From Bacilli bacterium (GTDB lineage: Bacteria; Bacillota_I; Bacilli_A; RFN20; CAG-826), in NCBI GenBank assembly GCA_045114745.1, contig JBGULD010000011.1:190-64189 (forward strand): a stretch of DNA of 64,000 bases, in the 5' to 3' direction. Both the position numbers and the translations under genes were made by a program. Numbering within the stretch: position 1 is the stretch's first letter; each line of letters starts with the position of its first letter. The notes beneath the pieces were generated by a model that did no database searches, had not been told where the DNA came from, and saw only the letters and a list, made by a program, of their open reading frames with translations. Of this stretch, positions 10,693 through 64,000 are shown piece by piece.

Positions 10693-11728
10693 TGAAGAAT
10701 TAAAAAAGCAAACTCCTCATAATCTTGAAAAGAAAGAACTCGATATCTTTGATAAGAGTAGATTAGAACATCCAGAAGACGAAGATACAGTCGTCAAAAT
10801 GAGAGATGTTCGTGTCGCTTTTAAGATCGGTTCTATTGAAAGAGTTATTATCAACCACCTTGATTTAGATATTAAACGCGGTGAAATTTTAGGTTTAGTC
10901 GGTGAATCCGGTTCTGGTAAAACAACGATTGGCCGTGCAATCATCCGTATTAACAAGGTTAGTGGTGGTGAAATCACTTATAATGGCGTGAAGATTTCTG
11001 GAAAGATTCCTAAGAAAACTGAACGTCTATTAAAAACCAAGATTCAAATGATCTTCCAAGACCCAGGCGATTCTTTAAACGATAGAGCGAATATTGACTA
11101 TATCGTTTCTGAAGGATTAAGGGCCTTCCATCTTTATAAAGATGAACAAGATCGTTTGGATAAAGTCACTCACATGATGGAAAGAGTGGGCTTACGTCCA
11201 GAATACTTAACACGTTATCCACACGAATTCTCTGGTGGTCAACGTCAAAGAATTGGTATTGCTAGATGTATGATTATGAATCCGGAATTCGTCATCGCTG
11301 ACGAACCTATTTCCGCGTTAGACGTTTCCATTCGTGCCCAGGTATTAAACCTCATAAGAGAGTTCCAACAAGAAAGAAAGATGTCGGTCTTATTTATCGC
11401 ACACGACCTTTCTGTTGTTAGATATATCTCTGATCGTATCGCGGTTATCTATGCGGGTCACATCGTGGAAATCGCTCCTGCGAATAGATTATTCGAAGCC
11501 CCACTTCACCCATACACCAAATCTTTACTTTCTGCGGTCCCAATTCCTGACCCAAAAGTTGAAAGAAATAAAAAGATTATTGTCTATAACGCGATGGAGA
11601 CACATCACTATGTGAAGAGTGACGCTCCAAAACTCGTGGAAATTGAAAAAGACCACTTTGTCCGTTGCAATACTCCTGAGTTAGAAGCTTATAGAAATGA
11701 ATTAGAAAGATTAGGAGGTAAGAAATAA
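10685..11728 (+). CDS. oppF: oligopeptide ABC transporter ATP-binding protein OppF
   Basis: ATG at 10685 overlaps the oppD stop (ATGAATAA), with GGAGGG 12 nt upstream. Walker A GESGSGKTT, signature FSGGQRQR and Walker B ADEPISALD are present. Confidence 0.85.
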   Translation: MNNEELKKQTPHNLEKKELDIFDKSRLEHPEDEDTVVKMRDVRVAFKIGSIERVIINHLDLDIKRGEILGLVGESGSGKTTIGRAIIRINKVSGGEITYNGVKISGKIPKKTERLLKTKIQMIFQDPGDSLNDRANIDYIVSEGLRAFHLYKDEQDRLDKVTHMMERVGLRPEYLTRYPHEFSGGQRQRIGIARCMIMNPEFVIADEPISALDVSIRAQVLNLIREFQQERKMSVLFIAHDLSVVRYISDRIAVIYAGHIVEIAPANRLFEAPLHPYTKSLLSAVPIPDPKVERNKKIIVYNAMETHHYVKSDAPKLVEIEKDHFVRCNTPELEAYRNELERLGGKK

Positions 11729-13938
11729 TGGCACGTGATATTTCCGAATTAGGTGCGGACGTATTTGATGATACCCCGAAACCTGTGCGAAAAATTTCTC
11801 CAAAAAAGAGAAACTACATTATTGGTTTATCAATATCAGCGCTTTTATTAGCAGGTGCTTCTGTCGCCGCTGTTATCTTATGTAACACCGCTCTTACTGA
11901 CTACTCCAATGTCCAAAATGTAACTTATTATTACACTCCTCAATCCATGCTCGGTGAAGGAGAAAAACCAACCGCGGTTTTATACCGTTTAAGAAGTGAT
12001 GTCAAATATCCATCTACCTTCCGTGTCCCAAGTCAAATCAAGGGATATAAAGTCGTGGGTATTGCCTCTAACGCTTTCTCTGGTCATAGTGAAATTAAAC
12101 ATGTCGTTTTACCTAACACAGTGACCTGGGTTGGTGAAAAAACCTTCTATAACTGCACTAATTTGTCCAAATTTACTTGGTCAAAGAACCTTTCTGAAGT
12201 TGGTGTTGATGCTTTCTTAAATACTGCTTTCTATAACAATTTATTAAAGCAAACCGATTCCATCTTCGACCTTCCTAGTGGATTATTAATCTACGTCGGA
12301 AAGAATTATTTAAAACCAAATACCGCTTTAATTTCCGATTCACTTAAAGAAGAAGAAATCAATGCCATCAAGAGCAAATATGCCGCTTCTGAGATTAAGA
12401 AATTCTCAGAAATGAATATTAAGAATATCGCTTCTGGCGCTTTCAAAGAAAACGACAAGATCGTCTATATTGATTTACCAGAAACATTACATGATATTTC
12501 TAATTCCACATTTGAAAACTGTTACAACCTCAAAGGTTTGAACGCTTTACATGGTAAGGTCTCCACAATTAGACAAAGAGCTTTCGCCAATTGTGCCCAA
12601 TTAGTGGATATCGACCTTCCTGATAACCTCACCTTAATCGGTGATGAAGCTTTCTCCGGTGCTGGCTTAGTGAATGAAATTCCTAATATTTCATCCGCTC
12701 AAGAATTAGGATCTGGCATCTTCTCATATTGTGAAGACTTAGAAAGTGTTAATTACACAGGTACATATGTTCCTGATTACACCTTCTTAGGATGCAAATC
12801 CTTAAATAGCATCACCTGGGGCGATGGTAGTGCGGAAACCAAAGATAAAATTGACTTTATCGGTATCGGTGCTTTCAGTGGCACAGCCTTCTCTTCATTC
12901 ACTGTTCCAAAGAATATTCTCACCATCTTAGATGAAACATTCATGAACTGTGAGAACTTAGAAACTGTTTCCTTATATGGAAACCCTACAAACAAAGTTG
13001 TTACTATCGAACCATCTGAAGACGAAGATGAAGATGAGGAAGAAGAAGTTGAAGAAGATACCTCTTCGTTCATCGATAATGATGGCAACGAACAACCTGG
13101 TACCCTTCTCGGTGTCGGTTCTATTAGAGCAAATGCTTTTAATGGATGTATCAAATTAAGCACAATAAATTTGTATGATGATACATATACCGTTTATGAA
13201 GGTAATAATGGTGAATTTACTTTCCCAAATTCCTTACAAAGAACAGATGCTTCATCCACAATCAGTGGTAATGACAATAACGTCTTCAAAGGTGCGGTAA
13301 CCACAAAAGTTATCTTAACTCCAAACTTAAGAAGTATTGGTTCCCACGCTTTCCAAGATGTCAAAGATTTAACAGAAGTAACAATTACTCATCCTGAAAA
13401 ATCTAGATTATCCACAATTAACACCAGTGCATTTGAAAATTGCGAAGCTTTAGAACAATTTGAACTTCCTAGCTCAATCACTGTCTTAGGCTCATCCGCT
13501 TTCAAAAACTGCACCAGCTTAAAACATGTTGGTCTTGGCGATACACAAATCAAGTCCATCAACGCGGAATTATTCTACAATTGTCCAGCATTAGAAGAAA
13601 TTGAGATTCCAAACACTGTTACCAACATTAAAAAAGATGCTTTCAAGAATATTGGAAAAGTCTCTCATGTGGTAATCCCAAGTTCTATCAATGAAATTCA
13701 AGAAAATGCTTTCACAAATTGTTTGAATGCTTCTGATGAAAAACTTCCACTTTACTTCTCATTTACAATTAGTCAAGCTAAGACACTTAACTTAGCGAAA
13801 AAGACTATCGCGGGTGAGCAAGTGGAAATCTGGAAAGATGATACTGTTGAAGTGTATTATCTCCTCGGTGATGGCGAAGAAAAACAAACCGGTTATAAAT
13901 ACTGGGATGGTAATGCCGCTGACCCACACGAAATCTAA
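11728..13938 (+). CDS. BspA-family leucine-rich-repeat surface protein with N-terminal membrane anchor and central poly-acidic linker
   Basis: The ATG overlaps the oppF stop by 1 nt (TAATG) and follows AGGAGG. Its N-terminal TM is YIIGLSISALLLAGASVAAVIL. Repeated ~22-aa LRR_5/BspA-type units (IAS.AF..C..L..V.LP..LT.IG..AF) recur, interrupted by EDEDEDEEEEVEED. Two terminators follow it. Confidence 0.7.
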   Translation: MARDISELGADVFDDTPKPVRKISPKKRNYIIGLSISALLLAGASVAAVILCNTALTDYSNVQNVTYYYTPQSMLGEGEKPTAVLYRLRSDVKYPSTFRVPSQIKGYKVVGIASNAFSGHSEIKHVVLPNTVTWVGEKTFYNCTNLSKFTWSKNLSEVGVDAFLNTAFYNNLLKQTDSIFDLPSGLLIYVGKNYLKPNTALISDSLKEEEINAIKSKYAASEIKKFSEMNIKNIASGAFKENDKIVYIDLPETLHDISNSTFENCYNLKGLNALHGKVSTIRQRAFANCAQLVDIDLPDNLTLIGDEAFSGAGLVNEIPNISSAQELGSGIFSYCEDLESVNYTGTYVPDYTFLGCKSLNSITWGDGSAETKDKIDFIGIGAFSGTAFSSFTVPKNILTILDETFMNCENLETVSLYGNPTNKVVTIEPSEDEDEDEEEEVEEDTSSFIDNDGNEQPGTLLGVGSIRANAFNGCIKLSTINLYDDTYTVYEGNNGEFTFPNSLQRTDASSTISGNDNNVFKGAVTTKVILTPNLRSIGSHAFQDVKDLTEVTITHPEKSRLSTINTSAFENCEALEQFELPSSITVLGSSAFKNCTSLKHVGLGDTQIKSINAELFYNCPALEEIEIPNTVTNIKKDAFKNIGKVSHVVIPSSINEIQENAFTNCLNASDEKLPLYFSFTISQAKTLNLAKKTIAGEQVEIWKDDTVEVYYLLGDGEEKQTGYKYWDGNAADPHEI

Positions 13939-36810: not shown

Positions 36811-38268
36811 ATGAACTACCTAGATTTGACAATTGAAGAAATCCATCAAGCTTTAATAGAGAATAAAGTCACACCTTTTGAGTTAGCAAAAGAAGCTATC
36901 AAAAGAGCAAAAGAAGATAGCAATAATGCCTTCGAATATATCTATGAAAAAGAAGTTTCCGCTTTTATCGATGGGTTAAAGAATAAAGACAAGAATAATC
37001 TTTTCTGGGGAATTCCATTCGTTATCAAAGATAACTTCTCCACAAAAGATATACCCACAACTGGTTCAAGCAATATGCTTACTGGATACAAACCTCCATT
37101 TTCTAGTGAAGTCTATACCCGTTTAATTAATGCTGGTGCCATTCCAATTGCTAAAACAACATTAGATGAATTTGCTATGGGTGGAACTGGTATGACTGGT
37201 CATAAAGGAACAACATTTAATCCATATGATCCAAGTCATAAACGCATGGTCGGCGGATCTTCTTGTGGTTCTGCATCAGCAGTAGCGGCATGTATTTCTC
37301 CATTAGGCATCGGAAGTGATACTGGTGATAGCGTGAGAAAGCCAGCTTGCTATGCTGGGTTGGTGGGATTTAAACCAACTTGGGGAAGAATATCACGTTA
37401 TGGATTATTCCCATTTGCCACCTCATTAGACCATGTTGCTTATTTCACCAGAAGCGTTGCCGATTCCGCAATTACTTTGGATGTTTTAGCGGGTAGAGAT
37501 GACAAAGATTCCAGCAGCTCATTTAAACCTGTAGAACAATACAAAAAACAGCTAAATCCCTGCATTTCTGGACTAAAAATCGCAATTATTGATGAAATTT
37601 ATGATTCTATTACCGATAGAAATATCAAAGTAAAATTTGAGAATTCTTTGGTTGAATTAGAGAAACTTGGGGCGGTTATCAATCATGTCAAAATGGATGA
37701 TAAATTATGCCGCGCTATCTTCCCAACTTACTACATAATCTCTTGTGCCGAATCAACAAGTAACAATGCCTATCTGGATGGTATTAAGTTTGGTACTCAC
37801 TATGATGGAAAGAGCTATGAAGAAATAATCAAAACCGTGAGAACAAAAGGTTTCTCAACTCGTATTAAAAAGCGTTTTATTATTGGTGCCTATTCATTGC
37901 TCAGCAGTAATCAAAAGGATGTCTTTTTGAAAGCACAAAAATGTCGTCGTTTAATTGTTAATGCGATTAATAAAATCTTAGAAGACAATGATGTGATTTA
38001 TTTGCCTGCCGCACCAACAGTAGCACCATTATTTACTGATTCAGGACATAAGTCATTTGATGAATATTCTATCGCTGATAATTATTTAGCGCTTGCGAAT
38101 TTTGCTGGTCTTCCATCTCTATCTTTACCTTTAGGTAAAATTAATGGTTTACCTATCGGAGGTAATGTTACTGGACGCGCTTTTGAAGAGCAAACTGTAT
38201 TTAATGTTTCTTTAGCTATTGAAGGGATCACTGGTTTAAAGAATCTCTCTGTTAAGGAGAATAAATAA
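36811..38268 (+). CDS. gatA: Asp-tRNA(Asn)/Glu-tRNA(Gln) amidotransferase subunit A
   Basis: The amidase signature GGSSCGSASAVAA...GSDTGDSVRKPA, with IKDNFSTKDIPTT. Confidence 0.9.
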   Translation: MNYLDLTIEEIHQALIENKVTPFELAKEAIKRAKEDSNNAFEYIYEKEVSAFIDGLKNKDKNNLFWGIPFVIKDNFSTKDIPTTGSSNMLTGYKPPFSSEVYTRLINAGAIPIAKTTLDEFAMGGTGMTGHKGTTFNPYDPSHKRMVGGSSCGSASAVAACISPLGIGSDTGDSVRKPACYAGLVGFKPTWGRISRYGLFPFATSLDHVAYFTRSVADSAITLDVLAGRDDKDSSSSFKPVEQYKKQLNPCISGLKIAIIDEIYDSITDRNIKVKFENSLVELEKLGAVINHVKMDDKLCRAIFPTYYIISCAESTSNNAYLDGIKFGTHYDGKSYEEIIKTVRTKGFSTRIKKRFIIGAYSLLSSNQKDVFLKAQKCRRLIVNAINKILEDNDVIYLPAAPTVAPLFTDSGHKSFDEYSIADNYLALANFAGLPSLSLPLGKINGLPIGGNVTGRAFEEQTVFNVSLAIEGITGLKNLSVKENK

Positions 38269-58550: not shown

Positions 58551-60197
58551 TTATCCGTTAAATGATGATTTCAAAGGACATGTTCTATTAAATACGAGAT
58601 GTTCCTTTGTGGATTCTTTATCGGTACAGAAGTAACCGGTTCTGATGAATTGGAATCTTTCTAATGGTTTTGTATCTTTTAAGGATTCTTCAACATATCC
58701 TTCTAATTTAATCCAGGAATTAGGATTTAATCTTTGTAAGAAGTCCAAACCTTTTGTTTCTTCGGTTTCATCAAACACTAATGGTTCGTATAAATTGAAG
58801 GTCGCTGGTAAAGCAGTAGTGGCTTCGACGTAGTGAATTGTGCCATTTGGTTTTCTTCCTTCAAAACCAATTCCCGATTTGGTTTCTGGATCATAGGTGC
58901 AATGTAATTCGATAATCTTGCCATTTTCATCTTTCTTGACGCTTTCGCATTTGATGAAATAGGCATGCATCAATCTCACCTCATCACCTAAAGATAATCT
59001 CTTCCATTTTCGATTTGGTTTTTCTTCGATGAAGTCTTCTTCTTCAATATAGAGATATTTGCCAAAGGCAATTTGTCGATTTCCTAGTGCTTCATTTTCC
59101 ATATTGTTAGGAGCGTCGCAATATTCAATCTTGCCTTCTGGATAGTTATCGATAACCACTTTTAAGGGGTGGAGAATTGCCATTGGGCGTTTAGCGATTA
59201 GCTTTTGCTCTTCTCTTAAGAAATAATCTAAGTTATCCGCATTAGTAGTGGAGTTAATTCTTGATAATCCAGTGTAGAGAATAAAGCTCTTAATGCTTTC
59301 CGCAGTGAAACCTTTTCTCTTTAATCCCACCAAAGTGGGCATTCTGGGATCGTCGTAACCGGTGACATATCCACCTTCCACTAATTGACGGAGATATCTT
59401 TTACTCATCACGGTGTTGGTGATATTTAATCTTCCCCATTCATATTGATGTGGAACATGCTCCATTTCACATTTTTCAATAAACCAATCATATAAGACAC
59501 GATGGTTATCATATTCTAATGAACAAAGTGAATGCGTCACTCCTTCAAAGGCATCTTGAAGTGGGTGAGCAAAGTCATACATTGGATAGATGCACCATTT
59601 ATTCCCTTGGCGGTGGTGGGTAACATGTAATATACGATACATAACAGGGTCACGCATATTGATGTTTGGAGAAGACATATCAATCTTCGCTCTTAAGGTT
59701 TTTTCACCATTCGCGTATTTACCTGCGCGCATTTCCTCAAATAATTTAAGGTTTTCTTCGATACTTCTATTGCGCCAAGGAGATTCTTTTCCTGGTTCAG
59801 TTAAAGTGCCACGGTATTCCGTCATCTCTTCTGGAGATAAATCATCAACATAAGCGAGTCCTTTTTTAATTAATAAAATAGCTTTCTCATAAGTCTTTTC
59901 GAAATAGTCGCTTCCAAAGAAGACATTTTTTGGTGTATAACCTAACCATTTTAAGTCGTCAATGATAGCGTCGACATATTCCGCACCTTCATTGACTGGG
60001 TTAGTGTCATCAAATCTTAAATTAGTGTAACCACCGAAAGCTTTTGCGAGTTCGAAGTCATTAACAATGGCTCTAGCATGGCCGATATGTAAATAGGCAT
60101 TTGGTTCAGGAGGAAAACGAGTGACGATTTGTTTAACACGCCCCTCTTCTAGATCCTTTTCCATAATTGTTTTGATAAAATTGTTAATTTCTTCCAT
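58551..60197 (-). CDS. glnS: glutamine--tRNA ligase
   Basis: Collinear with E. coli GlnRS: the HIGH motif (RFPPEPNAYLHIGHARA), LRFDDTNP, NKWCIYPMYDF, the VMSKR (KMSKS-type) motif and the C-terminal anticodon-binding beta-barrels. Confidence 0.9.
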   Translation of the reverse strand: MEEINNFIKTIMEKDLEEGRVKQIVTRFPPEPNAYLHIGHARAIVNDFELAKAFGGYTNLRFDDTNPVNEGAEYVDAIIDDLKWLGYTPKNVFFGSDYFEKTYEKAILLIKKGLAYVDDLSPEEMTEYRGTLTEPGKESPWRNRSIEENLKLFEEMRAGKYANGEKTLRAKIDMSSPNINMRDPVMYRILHVTHHRQGNKWCIYPMYDFAHPLQDAFEGVTHSLCSLEYDNHRVLYDWFIEKCEMEHVPHQYEWGRLNITNTVMSKRYLRQLVEGGYVTGYDDPRMPTLVGLKRKGFTAESIKSFILYTGLSRINSTTNADNLDYFLREEQKLIAKRPMAILHPLKVVIDNYPEGKIEYCDAPNNMENEALGNRQIAFGKYLYIEEEDFIEEKPNRKWKRLSLGDEVRLMHAYFIKCESVKKDENGKIIELHCTYDPETKSGIGFEGRKPNGTIHYVEATTALPATFNLYEPLVFDETEETKGLDFLQRLNPNSWIKLEGYVEESLKDTKPLERFQFIRTGYFCTDKESTKEHLVFNRTCPLKSSFNG

Positions 60198-60621
60198 AAG
60201 AACGCCCTCGGAGATATTTTACACTAGTAAAAGCATTGCTCAACAAAAATATTAATTGTTCAAATGAAAAATAATGGTGATGACCAAGTCAAAAAATGAA
60301 CTTTCTTGATCAATTTCAAAGATAAGTTTTTATTATTTTTAAGAGGAAATAATTAATATCAAAAGAACATTTTTAAGTAGTAGTGGGCCTTAATAAAACA
60401 ATAAAAAATAAGAAAAAATGAAAAATATACTATGTATCTTAGAAAATTGTTGACCAAAAAATAATTTTGGAAATAAAATAATTGTGCAGAACAAAAGCGA
60501 TAAAGGAAGTCCCATCCTTATTGGCGACAGGTGATGCAAAAATATAACTATCATCCATTCAATTTTAAATAACGAAAAAGTTGAATGATTTTTGTCGTTT
60601 ATAAGGAGAAATAAGAATTTT

Positions 60622-61551
60622 ATGAAAAAATCAAGAGTTATTATTCCTGCACTTGGTATTTTGGTTCTCTCTACCGCTGCTTCTGTTACAGGCACAGTCG
60701 CTTGGTTCACTGCTAATACAAAATATAACACCACAGTTGGTGACTTCGCAGTCGTGAAAACAAACGATGACCTAGTCTGTATCCAAGCTGCTGGCGTTGG
60801 TACCAATGTTAGCGCTGCTGATACACCAAACAACACCATTACAGTTAAATCTAATTATGAATTAACAGATGGTTCATTCGATCACACCGAAAACAATATC
60901 ATTGCACCAGATAGTTCAGGTCAAACAGTTGGTTCCGTTACCGCTTTAGGTAGCGCGAATGAAACAAATATGAAACGTGCTACATACATGGTCAGCACAA
61001 CCGAACACACCGTCTATACAGCCTTTACATGGACTATGACATTCAAAGTCAAATTCGGTGGTGTTAATAGAAACTATGGTTTATATATGGACCATACCGC
61101 TGATCACTCAGCAGTCACAAAGAAAAATGGCGATGCCATCGCTGCTACAGATACAGCCAAAGGCTTCAGATTAGCATTAGTTGGCCAAACCGCTACTTAT
61201 AGTAATACCAGAGTTTGGGCTGATAACCAAACATCTGCAAACTGCCAATTCGTTGATGGTTTAGCAGTTGGTGCTACCTTAGCAGGTACAGCTTATGCTT
61301 CACCTATCTTAATCGATAGCGCATACAATACCGCTTTACCAACAGCTGGTTCACCAGAATCAACAAGTACTGCTTCTGCTCGTCCAGACTACTTAGGTAA
61401 ATTCGTCTTCCAAGCCAATACAGAAGTTTCCTTGGTTTATAAAGCTGTTGCTTGGTTCGAAGGTACAGATCCAACCATCGTTAATACTGCTACAGTCTTC
61501 GATACAGTGACCGCTGCAATGCACTTTGAAGCGATTCCATTATCTGACTAA
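60622..61551 (+). CDS. secreted protein, TasA/camelysin-like (SipW-cognate-type signal peptide), paralog 1 of 4
   Basis: ATG at 60622 gives MKKSRVIIPALGILVLSTAASVTGTVAWFTANT, an n-region and h-region followed by a G-T-x-A-W-F motif (compare TasA GGGTWAAFND and camelysin GGGTFAYFSD). The body is Thr/Ala-rich and beta-rich. A W-F-E-G-x-D motif near the C-terminus is shared with paralogs 2-3. Confidence 0.5.
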   Translation: MKKSRVIIPALGILVLSTAASVTGTVAWFTANTKYNTTVGDFAVVKTNDDLVCIQAAGVGTNVSAADTPNNTITVKSNYELTDGSFDHTENNIIAPDSSGQTVGSVTALGSANETNMKRATYMVSTTEHTVYTAFTWTMTFKVKFGGVNRNYGLYMDHTADHSAVTKKNGDAIAATDTAKGFRLALVGQTATYSNTRVWADNQTSANCQFVDGLAVGATLAGTAYASPILIDSAYNTALPTAGSPESTSTASARPDYLGKFVFQANTEVSLVYKAVAWFEGTDPTIVNTATVFDTVTAAMHFEAIPLSD

Positions 61552-61571
61552 TATTAACTAAAGATGATTAA

Positions 61572-61605
61572 ATCCTCGCCTACTCGCGGGGATTTTTTAT
61601 TTTTC
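61572..61605 (+). terminator. rho-independent terminator after paralog 1
   Basis: ATCCTCGC-ctactc-GCGGGGAT is an 8-bp stem (one G-U pair) followed by T6AT5. Confidence 0.7.
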
Positions 61606-61626
61606 GAAAAAATTTTTCAAAAAGTA

Positions 61627-61656
61627 TTGCCACTTGTTAGTAAATGTGATAATTTG
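61627..61656 (+). promoter_or_regulatory. candidate sigma-A promoter for the riboswitch-led transcript
   Basis: TTGCCA (-35), a 17-nt spacer, then an extended -10 TGaTAATTT. The predicted start site is near 61663. Confidence 0.35.
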
Positions 61657-61662
61657 TATTCG

Positions 61663-61798
61663 AGCAAAAAGCACACCCATAGAAATATGGGGTCGCAAAA
61701 CTACAGGGTCTTATATAAAATAAGATAGCCAGTTGCCTTAAGAGGAACAATCCTCGCCAATGTATTGGATGATAGGCAACTGGCGTTTTTGTTTCTCT
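61663..61798 (+). ncRNA. candidate c-di-GMP-I (GEMM) riboswitch with intrinsic-terminator expression platform
   Basis: GCAAAAAGCACACC-CAUA-GAAA-UAUGGGG-UCGCAAAAC-UACAGGG parallels the Vc2 aptamer core GGGCAAACC-AUUC-GAAA-GAGUGGG-ACGCAAAGCC-UCCGG (a GNRA-capped hairpin followed by the (A/U)CGCAAA(G/A)C junction). A second hairpin UCUUAU-auaaa-AUAAGA follows. The 3' strand UAGCCAGUUGCC then pairs with GGCAACUGGC (61775-61784), giving a 10-bp terminator stem followed by U5GU3. Confidence 0.5.
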
Positions 61799-61842
61799 AA
61801 CGGGACACACGCTCCAAACCTTCGGAGCACAATTATTCATCT

Positions 61843-62664
61843 ATGTACGAATTACAATACGTAAAAAAACGGAAAAGAAGAAAATGGGTTGCGATCGGTG
61901 GTGGAATTGCATTGATCGGAGTTTCATCATTAGCAATCGTGGCATTCTTAGGCCGATTCGTTGGGACATTCACCGTATCGTTAAATACCGGGAATGTGGA
62001 ATTGGCGCTCAGTGATTCGTCAAGCTTCACTAGAAGTGAGTCATACTTGAGAATTAACGATATACCGAATTTTCATGAATGTACTTACTCAAGTCTTCCA
62101 AAAGCTGAAGTATTAGACAGTGATACAACAGACTACTTAACTGGAGCGACTTACAAACCTGATGGAGGAGTTGATGCACTCGACTACTTCAAATACACGT
62201 TCTTCGTGAGAAACGTTGGTAAGACCGCTGCTAGCTACACATTAAAAGTCAACATCACTGATAATAAGGCAGGCGAAGGATCAAGAACTTTAGATGATAC
62301 GTTACGCGTTATGCTCTATGAAAATGGCGCTGACACAGAAGATCACAACTTCAAAGTCTATGCCAAACGCGCAGCAACACATCACTTTGATGAAAACGGA
62401 GAAGTTAGCTTCAAAGAGCCGATCTCCATTAGTGAAGACAAGGCAACACCCTACGAACCATTCGCAGGATACGCTGAGGAATTTGAATCATCGAATGTCA
62501 TTACAACAATCACGGTAACAAATTTCGCAGTAGGTGAGACTAGAAGGTACACATTAGTAAATTGGCTTGAAGGATATGACCTTCAATCAAATAACTTAGA
62601 TGAAGCACCTAAAGGTGCAAGAATAAAATTAGGAGTTGAAATTAACGCTTATGAAAACCAATAA
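61843..62664 (+). CDS. secreted protein, divergent member of the TasA/camelysin-like paralog family (paralog 2)
   Basis: The signal is MYELQYVKKRKRRKWVAIGGGIALIGVSSLAIVAFLGRFVGTFTVSL. A C-terminal N-W-L-E-G-Y-D motif is shared with paralogs 1 and 3. It is the first gene downstream of the candidate riboswitch. Confidence 0.45.
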   Translation: MYELQYVKKRKRRKWVAIGGGIALIGVSSLAIVAFLGRFVGTFTVSLNTGNVELALSDSSSFTRSESYLRINDIPNFHECTYSSLPKAEVLDSDTTDYLTGATYKPDGGVDALDYFKYTFFVRNVGKTAASYTLKVNITDNKAGEGSRTLDDTLRVMLYENGADTEDHNFKVYAKRAATHHFDENGEVSFKEPISISEDKATPYEPFAGYAEEFESSNVITTITVTNFAVGETRRYTLVNWLEGYDLQSNNLDEAPKGARIKLGVEINAYENQ

Positions 62665-63631
62665 GAAAAATATTATTATTCCAGCATTAATGATGGCCGT
62701 CGGCTTAGGTTTAGTCGGTTCCATCTCTGGTACCGTTGCTTGGTATCAATATTCTACAAGAGTTACAACCTCTTACATTGGCGCTTCCGCAAAATGTACA
62801 GAGAGTTTACAAGTCAGCTTAACTGGCGTTGACAATGAATTTGTTAGTGAATTAGAAACAGCTGACATTATTGCTGCTGCTACTGCCAATGATACAGATG
62901 GTAGTGATTTCCAACCTGTTACATCCGCTGCTGCACACGCTACAGCTGTTGTCTCTGGTGCACAAACATACGCATTTAAAGGTCACCCAATGTATCAAAA
63001 CTTTGCATATGACACATGGCAAGATGCTCCAGCTAACTCATATTTACAATATGATTTATACTTCAGAGTTTTAGATGTTGATGGTGCTGCCACAAAATCT
63101 TACCTTGCTAAAAAATTATATTTTGAAGACTTCGTGATTAACTTCACAGGCACAAATTCTGGTGCTAGCGCAACAGCCTTCAAAGATGCATTAAGATTCC
63201 AATTTGACCAAGTCAATGGTACTGCTAAATCCACATTATTATCCAACACCGCTCGTTCAGCTATGAAATTAGGCGGAAGCTTAGATCTTAATGGTGATGG
63301 CGAATTTGACCAAACCCATGCTTATGAATGGGAAACCGCTACTGATGCAGTTTATGGTAATGAATCATTAACTCAAACCACAGCCGCTTTTGCCGATTAT
63401 AAAGGCACACTTACCAATGGTAAATTAGTTGCTGGTTCTAATGAACTCGGCACAACAGTTGCTGGCACATATTCTGCTGCTTCCGCATTACACTTCAAAG
63501 TCACAATTTGGCTTGAAGGTTGGGATGCCACAGGCACAACCGCTGCTACAAGCATTTGGGACGCCAAAGATTACATTGGCTCATTCCAAATTGGTATGAC
63601 ATTTGGTGTCACACCTTACGGCGAAGAATAA
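62651..63631 (+). CDS. secreted protein, TasA/camelysin-like, paralog 3
   Basis: ATG at 62651 gives MKTNKKNIIIPALMMAVGLGLVGSISGTVAWYQYSTRVTTSY. The C-terminal motif is VTIWLEGWDATG. An in-frame TTG at 62636 is the listed ORF start; AGGAG at 62631 lies 15 nt upstream of the ATG. Confidence 0.5.
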   Translation: MKTNKKNIIIPALMMAVGLGLVGSISGTVAWYQYSTRVTTSYIGASAKCTESLQVSLTGVDNEFVSELETADIIAAATANDTDGSDFQPVTSAAAHATAVVSGAQTYAFKGHPMYQNFAYDTWQDAPANSYLQYDLYFRVLDVDGAATKSYLAKKLYFEDFVINFTGTNSGASATAFKDALRFQFDQVNGTAKSTLLSNTARSAMKLGGSLDLNGDGEFDQTHAYEWETATDAVYGNESLTQTTAAFADYKGTLTNGKLVAGSNELGTTVAGTYSAASALHFKVTIWLEGWDATGTTAATSIWDAKDYIGSFQIGMTFGVTPYGEE

Positions 63632-63733
63632 TTTAACAAAACAAAAACACAAAAAACTTGTTTATAGATCTTATTAATTATTAATAAAATCTTTAAACTT
63701 ACTTAAAATAATAATTAGGGGAGGAGGCTTAAG

Positions 63734-64000
63734 ATGAAGTCTAACAAACGCGTTAGCTGGTTTCTCGTTGGATTCAGTTTATTGACCTTTGCGTCATTTA
63801 TTGGTGCAACGACAGGCACATTAGCATGGTATGCATATTCAACACGTGTATCTATGTCTTATATGGGCACATCTGTTGCAAAAACTGAACAACTTCAAAT
63901 CGGTCTTGTTGACGATGGTGCTACTGCACGCATCTCAGATGAGACAATCGCGACATATCATTATGATCGTGATAGTGATGACATTGTTTGGGCCCCTGCC
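63734..64000 (+). CDS. secreted protein, TasA/camelysin-like, paralog 4 (partial, runs off right edge)
   Basis: A strong SD AGGGGAGGAGG precedes it. The product begins MKSNKRVSWFLVGFSLLTFASFIGATTGTLAWYAYSTRVSMSYMGTS, whose N-terminus is near-identical in pattern to paralog 3. Confidence 0.5.
   Translation, partial: MKSNKRVSWFLVGFSLLTFASFIGATTGTLAWYAYSTRVSMSYMGTSVAKTEQLQIGLVDDGATARISDETIATYHYDRDSDDIVWAPA

What the first reader, a model, noticed from the sequence alone, without database searches (positions are those of the whole stretch)
60622..64000. Tandem array of four diverged paralogs with TasA/camelysin-type (SipW-cognate-like) signal peptides
Four consecutive plus-strand genes encode 270-330-aa secreted proteins. 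Their N-termini share a basic n-region and hydrophobic h-region followed by S/T-G-T-(V/L)-A-W-(F/Y), compared with TasA GGGTWAAFND and camelysin GGGTFAYFSD. Their C-terminal regions share W-(L/F)-E-G-x-D, echoing the F-E-A-T-Q-W-N-G strand of TasA. Paralog 2 is the most divergent (VGTFTVSLNTGNVELALSD). The compositions are Thr/Ala/Gly-rich and beta-prone, as expected for fibre or matrix proteins. No SipW-type signal peptidase lies inside the window; it may be just beyond 64000. Arrays like this are known from Bacillus (tasA/calY) but not, to my knowledge, from wall-less or Erysipelotrichia-like low-GC lineages.
Basis: partly seen in the sequence, partly recalled or inferred. Interest (0 to 1): 0.7.

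Follow-up and report, generated by a model that had tools for sequence, protein, structure and literature searches.

The report
Riboswitch-controlled TasA-like fibre operon with McrBC-like motor
The four genes are real, diverged copies of a TasA-like secreted fibre subunit, and they form the front of a conserved nine-gene operon of uncultured gut Bacilli that a cyclic-dinucleotide riboswitch switches on and that also encodes its own SipW-like signal peptidase and an unexpected membrane-anchored McrB/McrC-like NTPase pair.

Summary

- A c-di-GMP-I-class riboswitch lies at 61658-61743 between G1 and G2. It is built as an ON switch and has A at the G20 position, so it may sense cGAMP or both ligands.
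- A 97%-identical contig shows what follows the window: a fifth paralog, a membrane-anchored McrB-like AAA+ protein, a McrC-like DUF2357 coiled-coil protein, a divergent SipW-type peptidase and an EAL phosphodiesterase.
- This whole arrangement, riboswitch included, recurs in about 30 species-level MAGs.

It matches the "CoCoPALM" systems that Bell et al. 2024 named in one paragraph and did not analyse. The fibre role is inferred, and the role of the NTPase pair is unknown.

The parts
60450..60479 (+). Candidate sigma-70-type promoter for G1 (TTGACC-18-TAAAAT)
   Evidence: Consensus scan only, 10 of 12 matches. Weak evidence.
60622..61551 (+). G1: paralog 1, 309 aa, a monocistronic TasA-like secreted subunit. 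Signal peptide ends ...SVTGTVA|WF; C-terminal motif WFEGTD.
   Evidence: ORF. Motif uniqueness. Profile homology to G3 at 98.3%. Near miss to TIGR04088, 15.5 of 19 bits. G1-like genes lie 1-3 kb upstream of the operon in most related loci, sometimes on the other strand.
61570..61595 (+). Intrinsic terminator ending the G1 transcript
   Evidence: 10-bp stem, 5 GC pairs, followed by a T-run.
61627..61653 (+). Possible promoter of the operon (TTGCCA, 15-nt spacer, TG-n-GATAAT), ending 5 nt before the aptamer
   Evidence: Read by eye. The scan did not report it because the spacer is 15 nt. Tentative.
61658..61743 (+). Cyclic-dinucleotide riboswitch aptamer (Rfam c-di-GMP-I, RF01051) with A at the G20-equivalent position
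   Evidence: 64.9 bits against a gathering score of 35. My own covariance model finds an ortholog upstream of G2 in every locus that includes that region. A at position 20 in about 33 of 37 aptamers.
61723..61798 (+). Expression platform: a terminator hairpin (GCCAGTTGCC...GGCAACTGGC plus T-run) whose 5' arm is the 3' strand of the aptamer
   Evidence: MFE fold, z-score -5.4. The same overlapping terminator is found in at least 20 related loci. The pairings exclude each other, so ligand binding should allow read-through. The ON direction is an inference.
61843..62664 (+). G2: paralog 2, 273 aa. First gene of the operon and the best conserved of the subunits, with a distinct N-terminus (TM segment, then AFLGRFVGTFTVSL) and C-terminal WLEGYD.
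   Evidence: ORF. hhalign to G3 at 91.7% and to G1 at 89.3%. Conservation across loci.
62651..63631 (+). G3: paralog 3, 326 aa. Signal peptide ends ...ISGTVA|WYQYSTR. Has a DLNGDGEFD calcium-loop-like motif and C-terminal WLEGWD. Duplicated in many relatives.
63734..64000 (+). G4: paralog 4, first 89 of 388 residues. Signal peptide ends ...TTGTLA|WYAYSTR.
   Evidence: Sequence. Full length in L001 11084-12250. hhalign to G3 at 100%, E 1e-44.

Best explanation
The region is the 5' part of a conserved operon for an extracellular or surface filament built from TasA-like subunits.

Shown:
- There are five homologous secreted proteins (G1-G5).
- G1 is transcribed on its own.
- G2 to G5 are followed, without gaps, by a membrane-anchored McrB-like AAA+ NTPase (G6), a McrC-like DUF2357 coiled-coil protein (G7), a SipW/ER-type signal peptidase (G8) and an EAL phosphodiesterase.
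- A c-di-GMP-I-class aptamer sits in the leader, and its 3' strand doubles as the 5' arm of a terminator.

Inferred:
- A high level of cyclic dinucleotide stabilises the aptamer, prevents termination and switches the operon on. The ligand is c-di-GMP, or 3'3'-cGAMP or both, because position 20 is A.
- The pre-proteins are exported by Sec and cut by G8 after G-T-x-A.
- The newly exposed N-terminus (WYQYSTR...) is the most conserved segment and is disordered in the monomer model. It inserts as a donor strand into the next subunit, as in TasA, and the DxNxDG loops possibly bind calcium.
- G2, with its different and perhaps uncleaved N-terminus, is a candidate nucleator or membrane anchor, like TapA.
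- The terminal EAL enzyme gives negative feedback.
- G6 and G7 are an integral, strongly constrained part of the system (CoCoPALM). They probably couple NTP hydrolysis at the inner face of the membrane to assembly, anchoring or turnover of the filament. How they do so is unknown.
For: - Paralogy and motif uniqueness.
- The cleavage-site motif aligns with that of TasA (PMC10269814). The TasA donor strand is residues 28-38, directly after the cleavage site (PMC9674648).
- In G3 the invariant residues A30, W31, Q33, Y34 and T36 lie in the segment with pLDDT below 50.
- G8 has invariant S100 and H202. All 21 orthologs hit SipW NF046067 (best E 1.6e-10) and 14 hit TIGR02228.
- Riboswitch: 64.9 bits. 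It is present upstream of G2 in every assessable locus, and the terminator overlaps it.
- Synteny G2-G3-G4-G5-G6-G7-G8-EAL is found in about 30 species-level MAGs, with gene gaps or overlaps of a few bases.
- G6: Pfam AAA_5, and E. coli McrB is the best PDB sequence hit.
- The published description of CoCoPALM matches.
Against: - No sequence-level link to TasA/Peptidase_M73 for the mature domains.
- Only G3 was modelled.
- All G8 peptidase HMM hits are below the curated cut-offs.
- No multimer prediction or experiment shows polymerisation.
- TasA, BsaA, cannulae and threads need no NTPase, so the presence of G6/G7 does not follow from the fibre model.
- The downstream genes are read from a 97%-identical contig, not from the window itself.
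Confidence: 0.6

Rival explanations
1. The fibre part is as described above, but the McrB/McrC-like pair is a co-transcribed anti-phage or nucleic-acid-targeting module. It would be a relative of type IV restriction and CoCoNuT systems, and it would not take part in filament assembly. On this reading the operon couples a sessile or attached state with defence.
For: G6 matches the PADLOC defence-candidate model PDC-M26A at E 2e-40. Its best PDB hit is the restriction GTPase McrB. G7 carries the McrC N-terminal domain. Bell et al. place CoCoPALM inside the McrBC and CoCoNuT radiation.
Against: - The pair sits between the subunit genes and the peptidase in every locus, with gaps of 2-14 nt.
- G6 is 75-96% identical across thousands of clusters, far more conserved than the subunits. 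That is unusual for defence genes.
- G6 is membrane-anchored.
- G7 shows no PD-(D/E)xK Pfam hit. Its model has only one strand where a nuclease sheet would be.
Confidence: 0.2
2. G1-G5 are not polymerising subunits. They would be a set of monomeric surface or secreted beta-sandwich proteins, such as adhesins, carbohydrate-binding proteins or a surface coat, that merely share a dedicated signal peptidase and cyclic-dinucleotide control.
Against: - The most conserved segment is the post-cleavage N-terminal strand, which does not pack on its own domain.
- Multiple paralogs in fixed order resemble pilus operons with major and minor subunits.
Confidence: 0.15
3. The shared N-termini are ordinary Sec or lipoprotein signal peptides, and the resemblance to TasA is chance.
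For: TIGR04088 is not reached by any of the proteins.
Against: - The signal peptides have no lipobox cysteine (sequences).
- The motif is unique to these genes in the window, with 0.005 expected by chance.
- It is invariant across 75 homologs.
- A dedicated ER-type peptidase is encoded in the same operon.
Confidence: 0.03

Closest known systems
[quoted passage not shown]
   Same: The McrB-like NTPase is fused to an N-terminal transmembrane and coiled-coil segment. The McrC homolog has DUF2357 and a long coiled coil. A signal-peptidase-family gene is adjacent. The hosts are Bacillota.
   Different: The paper gives one paragraph and defers the analysis to a later publication, and no later paper was found. 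It does not describe the putative pilus subunits, their TasA-like fold and SipW-type signal peptides, the riboswitch or the EAL gene. Those points come from this analysis. The NxD motif said to mark this clade cannot be told apart here, because the invariant sequence is N-N-D-D.
Bacillus subtilis tapA-sipW-tasA and B. cereus sipW-tasA-calY; Clostridium perfringens sipW-bsaA (PMC9674648, PMC4292775, PMC7395162)
   Same: Several paralogous secreted beta-sandwich subunits. A signal peptide that ends G-T-x-A|x-aromatic. A dedicated ER-type (Ser-His) signal peptidase in the same operon. A fold most similar to the TasA fibre.
   Different: No detectable sequence homology of the mature domains and no Peptidase_M73 match. 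The subunits are larger (273-388 aa). There are five paralogs. A McrB/McrC-like pair is embedded in the operon. Control is by a cyclic-dinucleotide riboswitch rather than SinR or temperature. The peptidase is twice the size of SipW and has a conserved cytoplasmic tail.
Archaeal donor-strand filaments: cannulae CanA/CanX, DUF1102 tubes, Sulfolobus threads (Saci_0406) and bundling pili AbpA
   Different: The hosts are archaeal, the subunits are smaller, no NTPase is known in these systems, and calcium binding here is only a motif.
c-di-GMP-I (GEMM-I) and GEMM-Ib cGAMP riboswitches, for example the C. difficile ON and OFF switches and Geobacter Gs1761
   Same: The aptamer scores 64.9 bits on RF01051. 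It is a terminator-based transcriptional switch upstream of surface-structure genes.
   Different: A replaces G20 in most orthologs. That change marks cGAMP-selective or bispecific GEMM-Ib aptamers (PMC6140456), yet the operon ends with an EAL enzyme, which acts on c-di-GMP. This downstream gene set has not been described.

Membership tests
TasA/camelysin family (Pfam Peptidase_M73) | Match to the family HMM over the mature domain | tested here: not met
   No Pfam or NCBIfam hit for G1-G5 at E up to 10. A profile search of PDB sequences is empty. hhalign of the G3 profile against TasA aligns only the signal peptide.
TasA/camelysin family (Pfam Peptidase_M73) | Jellyroll or beta-sandwich fold like TasA (5OF1/8AUR) | tested here: inconclusive
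SipW-cognate signal peptide (TIGR04088) | HMM score at or above the 19-bit cut-off | tested here: not met
   The G1 N-terminus scores 15.5 bits (E 0.014, model positions 2-29 of 34). G2 to G5 are not reported.
SipW-cognate signal peptide (TIGR04088) | The h-region ends in G-T-x-A, with an aromatic residue at P2' as in TasA (TWA|AF) | tested here: met
   G1 GTVA|WF, G3 GTVA|WY, G4 GTLA|WY and G5 SIA|WY. The motif aligns to the TasA GTWA. The TasA cleavage site is taken from PMC10269814. G2 (GTFT|VS) does not fit.
SipW-cognate signal peptide (TIGR04088) | A SipW-type peptidase encoded nearby | tested here: met
   G8 lies in the same operon in L001 and in about 28 other loci. It lies about 6.1 kb beyond the window end.
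ER/archaeal-type signal peptidase I (SipW, TIGR02228) | HMM score above the curated cut-off | tested here: not met
   All 21 orthologs hit NF046067 (best E 1.6e-10) and 14 hit TIGR02228 (best 1.2e-5), but every score is far below the cut-off of 190 bits for NF046067.
ER/archaeal-type signal peptidase I (SipW, TIGR02228) | Catalytic Ser (SM-x-P box) and His (THR box), flanked by an N-terminal and a C-terminal transmembrane segment | tested here: met
   S100-M101 in TDSMEP and T201-H202-R203 are invariant in 21 sequences. Hydrophobic segments lie at about residues 55-75 and 268-290.
c-di-GMP-I riboswitch (RF01051) | Covariance-model score above the gathering score | tested here: met
   64.9 bits against 35, full length. 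Seven of seven related loci also pass.
c-di-GMP-I riboswitch (RF01051) | G at the position that reads G-alpha of c-di-GMP (G20 of Vc2) | tested here: not met
   The window has A (consensus AAaGGCAAAcc, window AAAAGCACACC). A is found in about 33 of 37 related aptamers and G in 4. A20 marks GEMM-Ib, which is selective for cGAMP or binds both ligands (PMC6140456).
c-di-GMP-I riboswitch (RF01051) | Ligand binding and the regulatory direction | not testable with these tools
   Only the mutually exclusive aptamer and terminator pairing is shown.
CoCoPALM (Bell et al. 2024) | McrB-like AAA+ GTPase fused to a transmembrane and coiled-coil (FtsB-like) N-terminus | tested here: met
   Pfam AAA_5 at 23 bits against a cut-off of 22. 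NCBIfam McrB E 8e-4. PDB McrB 6hz4 E 4e-4 over residues 194-365, with the DEMNLA...FAEFL and GTANNDDS boxes aligned. A hydrophobic segment at residues 57-83 is followed by a heptad-like charged helix (sequence). FtsB homology itself was not tested.
CoCoPALM (Bell et al. 2024) | McrC homolog (DUF2357) with a coiled coil, encoded next to the GTPase | tested here: met
CoCoPALM (Bell et al. 2024) | An associated signal-peptidase-family gene | tested here: met
   G8 starts 2 nt after G7.
CoCoPALM (Bell et al. 2024) | NxD rather than NxxD GTPase signature | tested here: inconclusive
   The invariant sequence GTANNDDST fits both patterns.
Type IV pilins | Class III signal peptide (short leader, G|F-x-x-x-E, then a hydrophobic helix), plus PilB/PilC/PilD genes | tested here: not met
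   The hydrophobic segment precedes the conserved motif, and there is no Glu at +5. No T4P Pfam families are recorded in the locus.
Sortase-dependent pilins and LPXTG proteins | C-terminal LPXTG, a hydrophobic segment and a basic tail | tested here: not met
   There is only an internal LPTAG in G1, with no C-terminal anchor. The others have none.

The most novel reading that the evidence does not exclude
This would be a new kind of pilus machine. TasA-like donor-strand filaments would be nucleated, anchored, extruded or remodelled by a membrane-anchored McrB-type GTPase ring and its McrC-like activator. A restriction-enzyme motor would thus have been recruited to build a surface structure. The whole apparatus would be switched on by a GEMM-Ib-like riboswitch that may read cGAMP as well as c-di-GMP, in abundant uncultured gut and rumen Bacilli.
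Probability: 0.3. Interest if true: 0.9.

Novelty: new variant of a known kind. Interest (0 to 1): 0.7.

Why it matters
TasA-type fibres are thought to assemble outside the cell without an energy source. Here an operon fixes such subunits, their private signal peptidase and an McrB/McrC-like NTPase pair in one riboswitch-controlled transcript, and it is conserved across a whole lineage of abundant but uncultured gut and rumen bacteria. If the NTPase takes part in assembly, this is a new principle of filament biogenesis and a non-defence use of the McrBC motor.

The analysis also adds detail to a system that the literature has only named (CoCoPALM). It predicts the subunits, the cleavage site, the candidate donor strand and the regulatory input.

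The A20 aptamers offer natural test cases for c-di-GMP versus cGAMP specificity outside Geobacter. Orthologous leaders carry either A or G at that position.

Tried and rejected
- The exact-sequence look-up of G3 from the TTG start found nothing. The ATG-start homolog P0001 gave the contig.
- Pfam and NCBIfam searches on G1-G5 gave only noise.
- PADLOC found nothing for the subunits, G7 or G8.
- PDB sequence-profile searches for the G3, G8 and G7 families gave nothing meaningful.
- The Foldseek search of PDB with the G3 model gave no hit with E below 0.1.
- The afdb50 fold library was not available.
- Cluster look-up of ten homologs returned no names.
- The profile search of 1.84 billion representatives listed only close family members, so it gave no bridge to TasA.
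- The supplements of the CoCoNuT paper held no CoCoPALM text, and no follow-up paper exists in the library.
- I considered a PD-(D/E)xK site at E184-x-K186 of G7. The model places these residues in a long beta-hairpin of the DUF2357 region, not in a nuclease sheet. I do not claim a nuclease.
- Lipoprotein, type IV pilin and sortase-pilin readings are rejected on sequence features.


Full report
**1. What is in the sequence**

Between a minus-strand glutaminyl-tRNA synthetase gene (58551-60197) and the window end lie four plus-strand genes:
- G1: 60622-61551, 309 aa.
- G2: 61843-62664, 273 aa.
- G3: 62651-63631, 326 aa from the ATG that all homologs use. A TTG at 62636 would give 331 aa.
- G4: from 63734, cut by the window end after 89 residues.

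G1, G3 and G4 begin with a basic stretch and a hydrophobic segment of about 18 residues, followed by GT(V/L)AW(F/Y). G1, G2 and G3 end with W(L/F)EGxD followed by one more strand. Each motif occurs three times in the six-frame translation of all 64 kb, only in these genes. Residue shuffles give expectations of 0.005 and 0.09.

BLASTP sees almost nothing else between the proteins. Profiles built from orthologs in related loci show that they are homologous:
- G3-G4: probability 100%, E 1e-44.
- G4-G5: 99.7%.
- G3-G5: 99.4%.
- G1-G3: 98.3%.
- G2-G3: 91.7%.
- G1-G2: 89.3%.

The fourth protein is 388 aa, and a fifth paralog follows it.

**2.

G1 is followed by a clean intrinsic terminator at 61570-61595. 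A c-di-GMP-I riboswitch aptamer follows at about 61658-61743. It scores 64.9 bits on Rfam RF01051 against a gathering score of 35.

Directly downstream, GCCAGTTGCC pairs with GGCAACTGGC, and a T-run follows. The 5' arm of this terminator is the 3' strand of the aptamer's second helix (fold z-score -5.4). The aptamer and the terminator therefore exclude each other, which is the layout of an ON switch. The direction is an inference.

The base that corresponds to G20 of the Vibrio Vc2 aptamer is A. In c-GAMP riboswitches G20 is replaced by adenine, and both the Vc2 G20A mutant and several natural GEMM-Ib aptamers bind c-di-GMP as well as cGAMP (PMC6140456). The ligand may therefore be c-di-GMP, 3'3'-cGAMP or both.

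**3. What lies beyond the window**

A metagenomic contig (L001, ENA ERZ28653728) encodes a 99%-identical G3. It differs from the window at 56 of 2157 positions over 61843-64000. It shows the rest of the transcription unit, with neighbouring genes separated by a few bases or overlapping:
- G4, 388 aa.
- G5, 363 aa. N-terminus SFSIAWY, C-terminal YLEGWD.
- G6, 504 aa.
- G7, 858 aa.
- G8, 340 aa.
- An EAL-domain protein, 517 aa (Pfam EAL E 2e-64).
- A PNP_UDP_1 gene and a GGDEF-EAL gene follow.

G8 would lie at window-equivalent coordinates 70105-71127, about 6.1 kb past the end.

**4. The signal peptidase**

In 21 orthologs of G8 the residues S100-M101 (TDSMEP) and T201-H202-R203 (MTHRLRE) are invariant, and hydrophobic segments flank this region. 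All 21 hit the NCBIfam SipW model NF046067 (best E 1.6e-10), and 14 hit TIGR02228, the archaeal-type signal peptidase I model.

All scores are far below the curated cut-offs, and a PDB profile search finds nothing. G8 is therefore a very divergent ER/SipW-type peptidase with the Ser-His dyad in place. It also carries a conserved cytoplasmic tail (LSxEDKxRLKxELLxEM) that is tandemly repeated in two loci.

**5. Are the subunits TasA-like?**

By sequence they are not:
- No Pfam Peptidase_M73 match and no NCBIfam match for the mature parts.
- No PDB hit for a 75-sequence profile.
- Scanned alone, the G1 N-terminus reaches 15.5 bits on TIGR04088 against a cut-off of 19. The others do not register.
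- hhalign of the G3 profile against B. subtilis TasA aligns only the signal peptides, but it places GTVA on GTWA.

TasA is cut TWA|AFND, with Phe at P2' (PMC10269814). G3 would be cut TVA|WYQY, G1 TVA|WFTA and G4 TLA|WYAY.

Foldseek finds nothing, so the similarity is distant.

In TasA the donor strand is residues 28-38, the first residues after cleavage (PMC9674648). In G3 the post-cleavage segment carries the invariant residues A30, W31, Q33, Y34 and T36, and it is the only part of the mature protein that the monomer model leaves disordered. That is what a donor strand would look like. G3 and G4 also carry DxNxDGxxD loops, which recall the calcium-dependent cannulae. This is a lead only.

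**6. The unexpected pair**

G6 has a hydrophobic segment (residues 57-83), a charged helical stretch and an AAA+ domain. The domain matches Pfam AAA_5. Its best PDB hit is E. coli McrB, with the DE(M/I)N...F(A/G)E and GT(A/M)N..D boxes aligned. It also hits the PADLOC candidate PDC-M26A at E 2e-40.

G6 is 75-96% identical across more than 8000 clusters. It is far more conserved than the subunits, which are 30-45% identical.

Bell et al. (eLife 2024, PMC11090510) describe exactly this combination in one paragraph. [quoted passage not shown] It comprises an McrB GTPase fused to an FtsB-like transmembrane and coiled-coil domain, coiled coils on both partners, and associated signal-peptidase-family proteins. 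They defer the analysis to a later paper, and I found none.

**7. Conservation**

A pattern search of 185,579 species genomes returned 37 loci. All come from uncultured rumen or gut MAGs labelled Erysipelotrichaceae, Bacilli, Bacillales, Candidatus Enteromonas or Candidatus Enterosoma. One contig is probably mis-binned as Bacteroides.

In every locus long enough to judge, the order is G2, G3 (often two copies), G4, G5, G6, G7, G8, EAL. The same order holds in a common lineage represented by P0056. A G1-like gene usually lies 1-3 kb upstream, sometimes on the other strand.

A covariance model built from eight aptamers finds the riboswitch directly upstream of G2 in every locus that includes that region. 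It also finds one in front of two stand-alone long G3-like genes.

In at least 20 loci the terminator starts 15-16 nt inside the aptamer. In eight others a second copy of the arm lies 40 nt downstream.

The G3 profile finds only 909 cluster representatives in 1.84 billion proteins, so the family is small and lineage-restricted.

**8. Most likely mechanism**

The shown and inferred steps are separated in the best explanation. In brief:
- A cyclic dinucleotide stabilises the aptamer and allows read-through.
- G2 to G5 are exported and cut by G8 after G-T-x-A.
- The exposed N-terminal strand polymerises the subunits by donor-strand complementation.
- G2 may act as the nucleator or membrane anchor.
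- The EAL enzyme feeds back on the signal.
- G1 is supplied from its own promoter.

The role of G6 and G7 is open. Their fixed position, membrane anchor and extreme conservation argue for a role in the apparatus rather than a passenger defence module. However, their ancestry is in restriction systems, and no known TasA-type fibre needs an NTPase.

**9. Verdict**

The finding is real and more interesting than stated. The TasA analogy holds for the signal peptide, the dedicated peptidase and, distantly, the fold. It does not hold for family membership. The system as a whole corresponds to the barely described CoCoPALM class. This analysis adds the subunit family, the predicted cleavage site and donor strand, the cyclic-dinucleotide riboswitch with A20, and the EAL feedback gene.

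I rate it a new variant of a known kind, with interest 0.7.

Noticed in passing
window 61658-61743 (position 61670): The riboswitch has A instead of G at the G20-equivalent, ligand-contacting position. This is the hallmark of cGAMP-sensing or bispecific GEMM-Ib aptamers. Orthologous operon leaders in L015 and L022 have G.
   Followed up: partly
L013 3243-5173 and L014 6-1935: A stand-alone, longer (593 aa) G3-like gene has its own copy of the same riboswitch and a short overlapping terminator, outside the main operon.
   Followed up: no
L019 705-785, L005 1294-1376, L032 6136-6219 (-), L037 3605-3685 (-): Further c-di-GMP-I-class aptamers lie a few kb from the operon and control other, unexamined genes. 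Two of them have G at position 20.
   Followed up: no
L001 18300-18477; L025 and L037 G8 C-termini: The cytoplasmic tail of the SipW-like peptidase carries a conserved motif, LSxEDKxRLKxELLxEM. It is tandemly repeated three to five times in two species. It may be a docking site for the cytoplasmic G6/G7 proteins.
   Followed up: no
L001 16000-17300 (G7 C-terminal half): G7 has a very long, length-variable E/K/R-rich region followed by a P/E/K-rich low-complexity region. G7 ranges from about 525 to 1080 aa among species.
   Followed up: no
L040 2765-5935: In a related lineage a family-2 glycosyltransferase and a GGDEF protein lie just upstream of the operon. A PNP_UDP_1 gene and a 1000-aa GGDEF-EAL protein lie downstream in both L001 and L040. 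This suggests a wider cyclic-dinucleotide and biofilm neighbourhood.
   Followed up: no
L038 (CAVCCX010000006.1): This contig belongs to a bin labelled Bacteroides uniformis but carries the complete Bacilli-type operon. It is probably mis-binned.
   Followed up: no
window 11728-13938: A 736-aa BspA-type leucine-rich-repeat protein (Pfam LRR_5, E 1e-80), another likely surface protein of this organism.
   Followed up: no
window 36811-38268 and 58551-60197: The window encodes both a GatA-type amidase (Pfam Amidase, E 4e-105) and a glutaminyl-tRNA synthetase. This pairing may be worth a look for Gln/Asn-tRNA charging in this lineage.
   Followed up: no
window 60198-60621: A 420-nt AT-rich leader lies upstream of G1. 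It has no Rfam match at E up to 1. L001 has a 30-codon ORF called in the same place. How G1 is regulated is unknown.
   Followed up: partly
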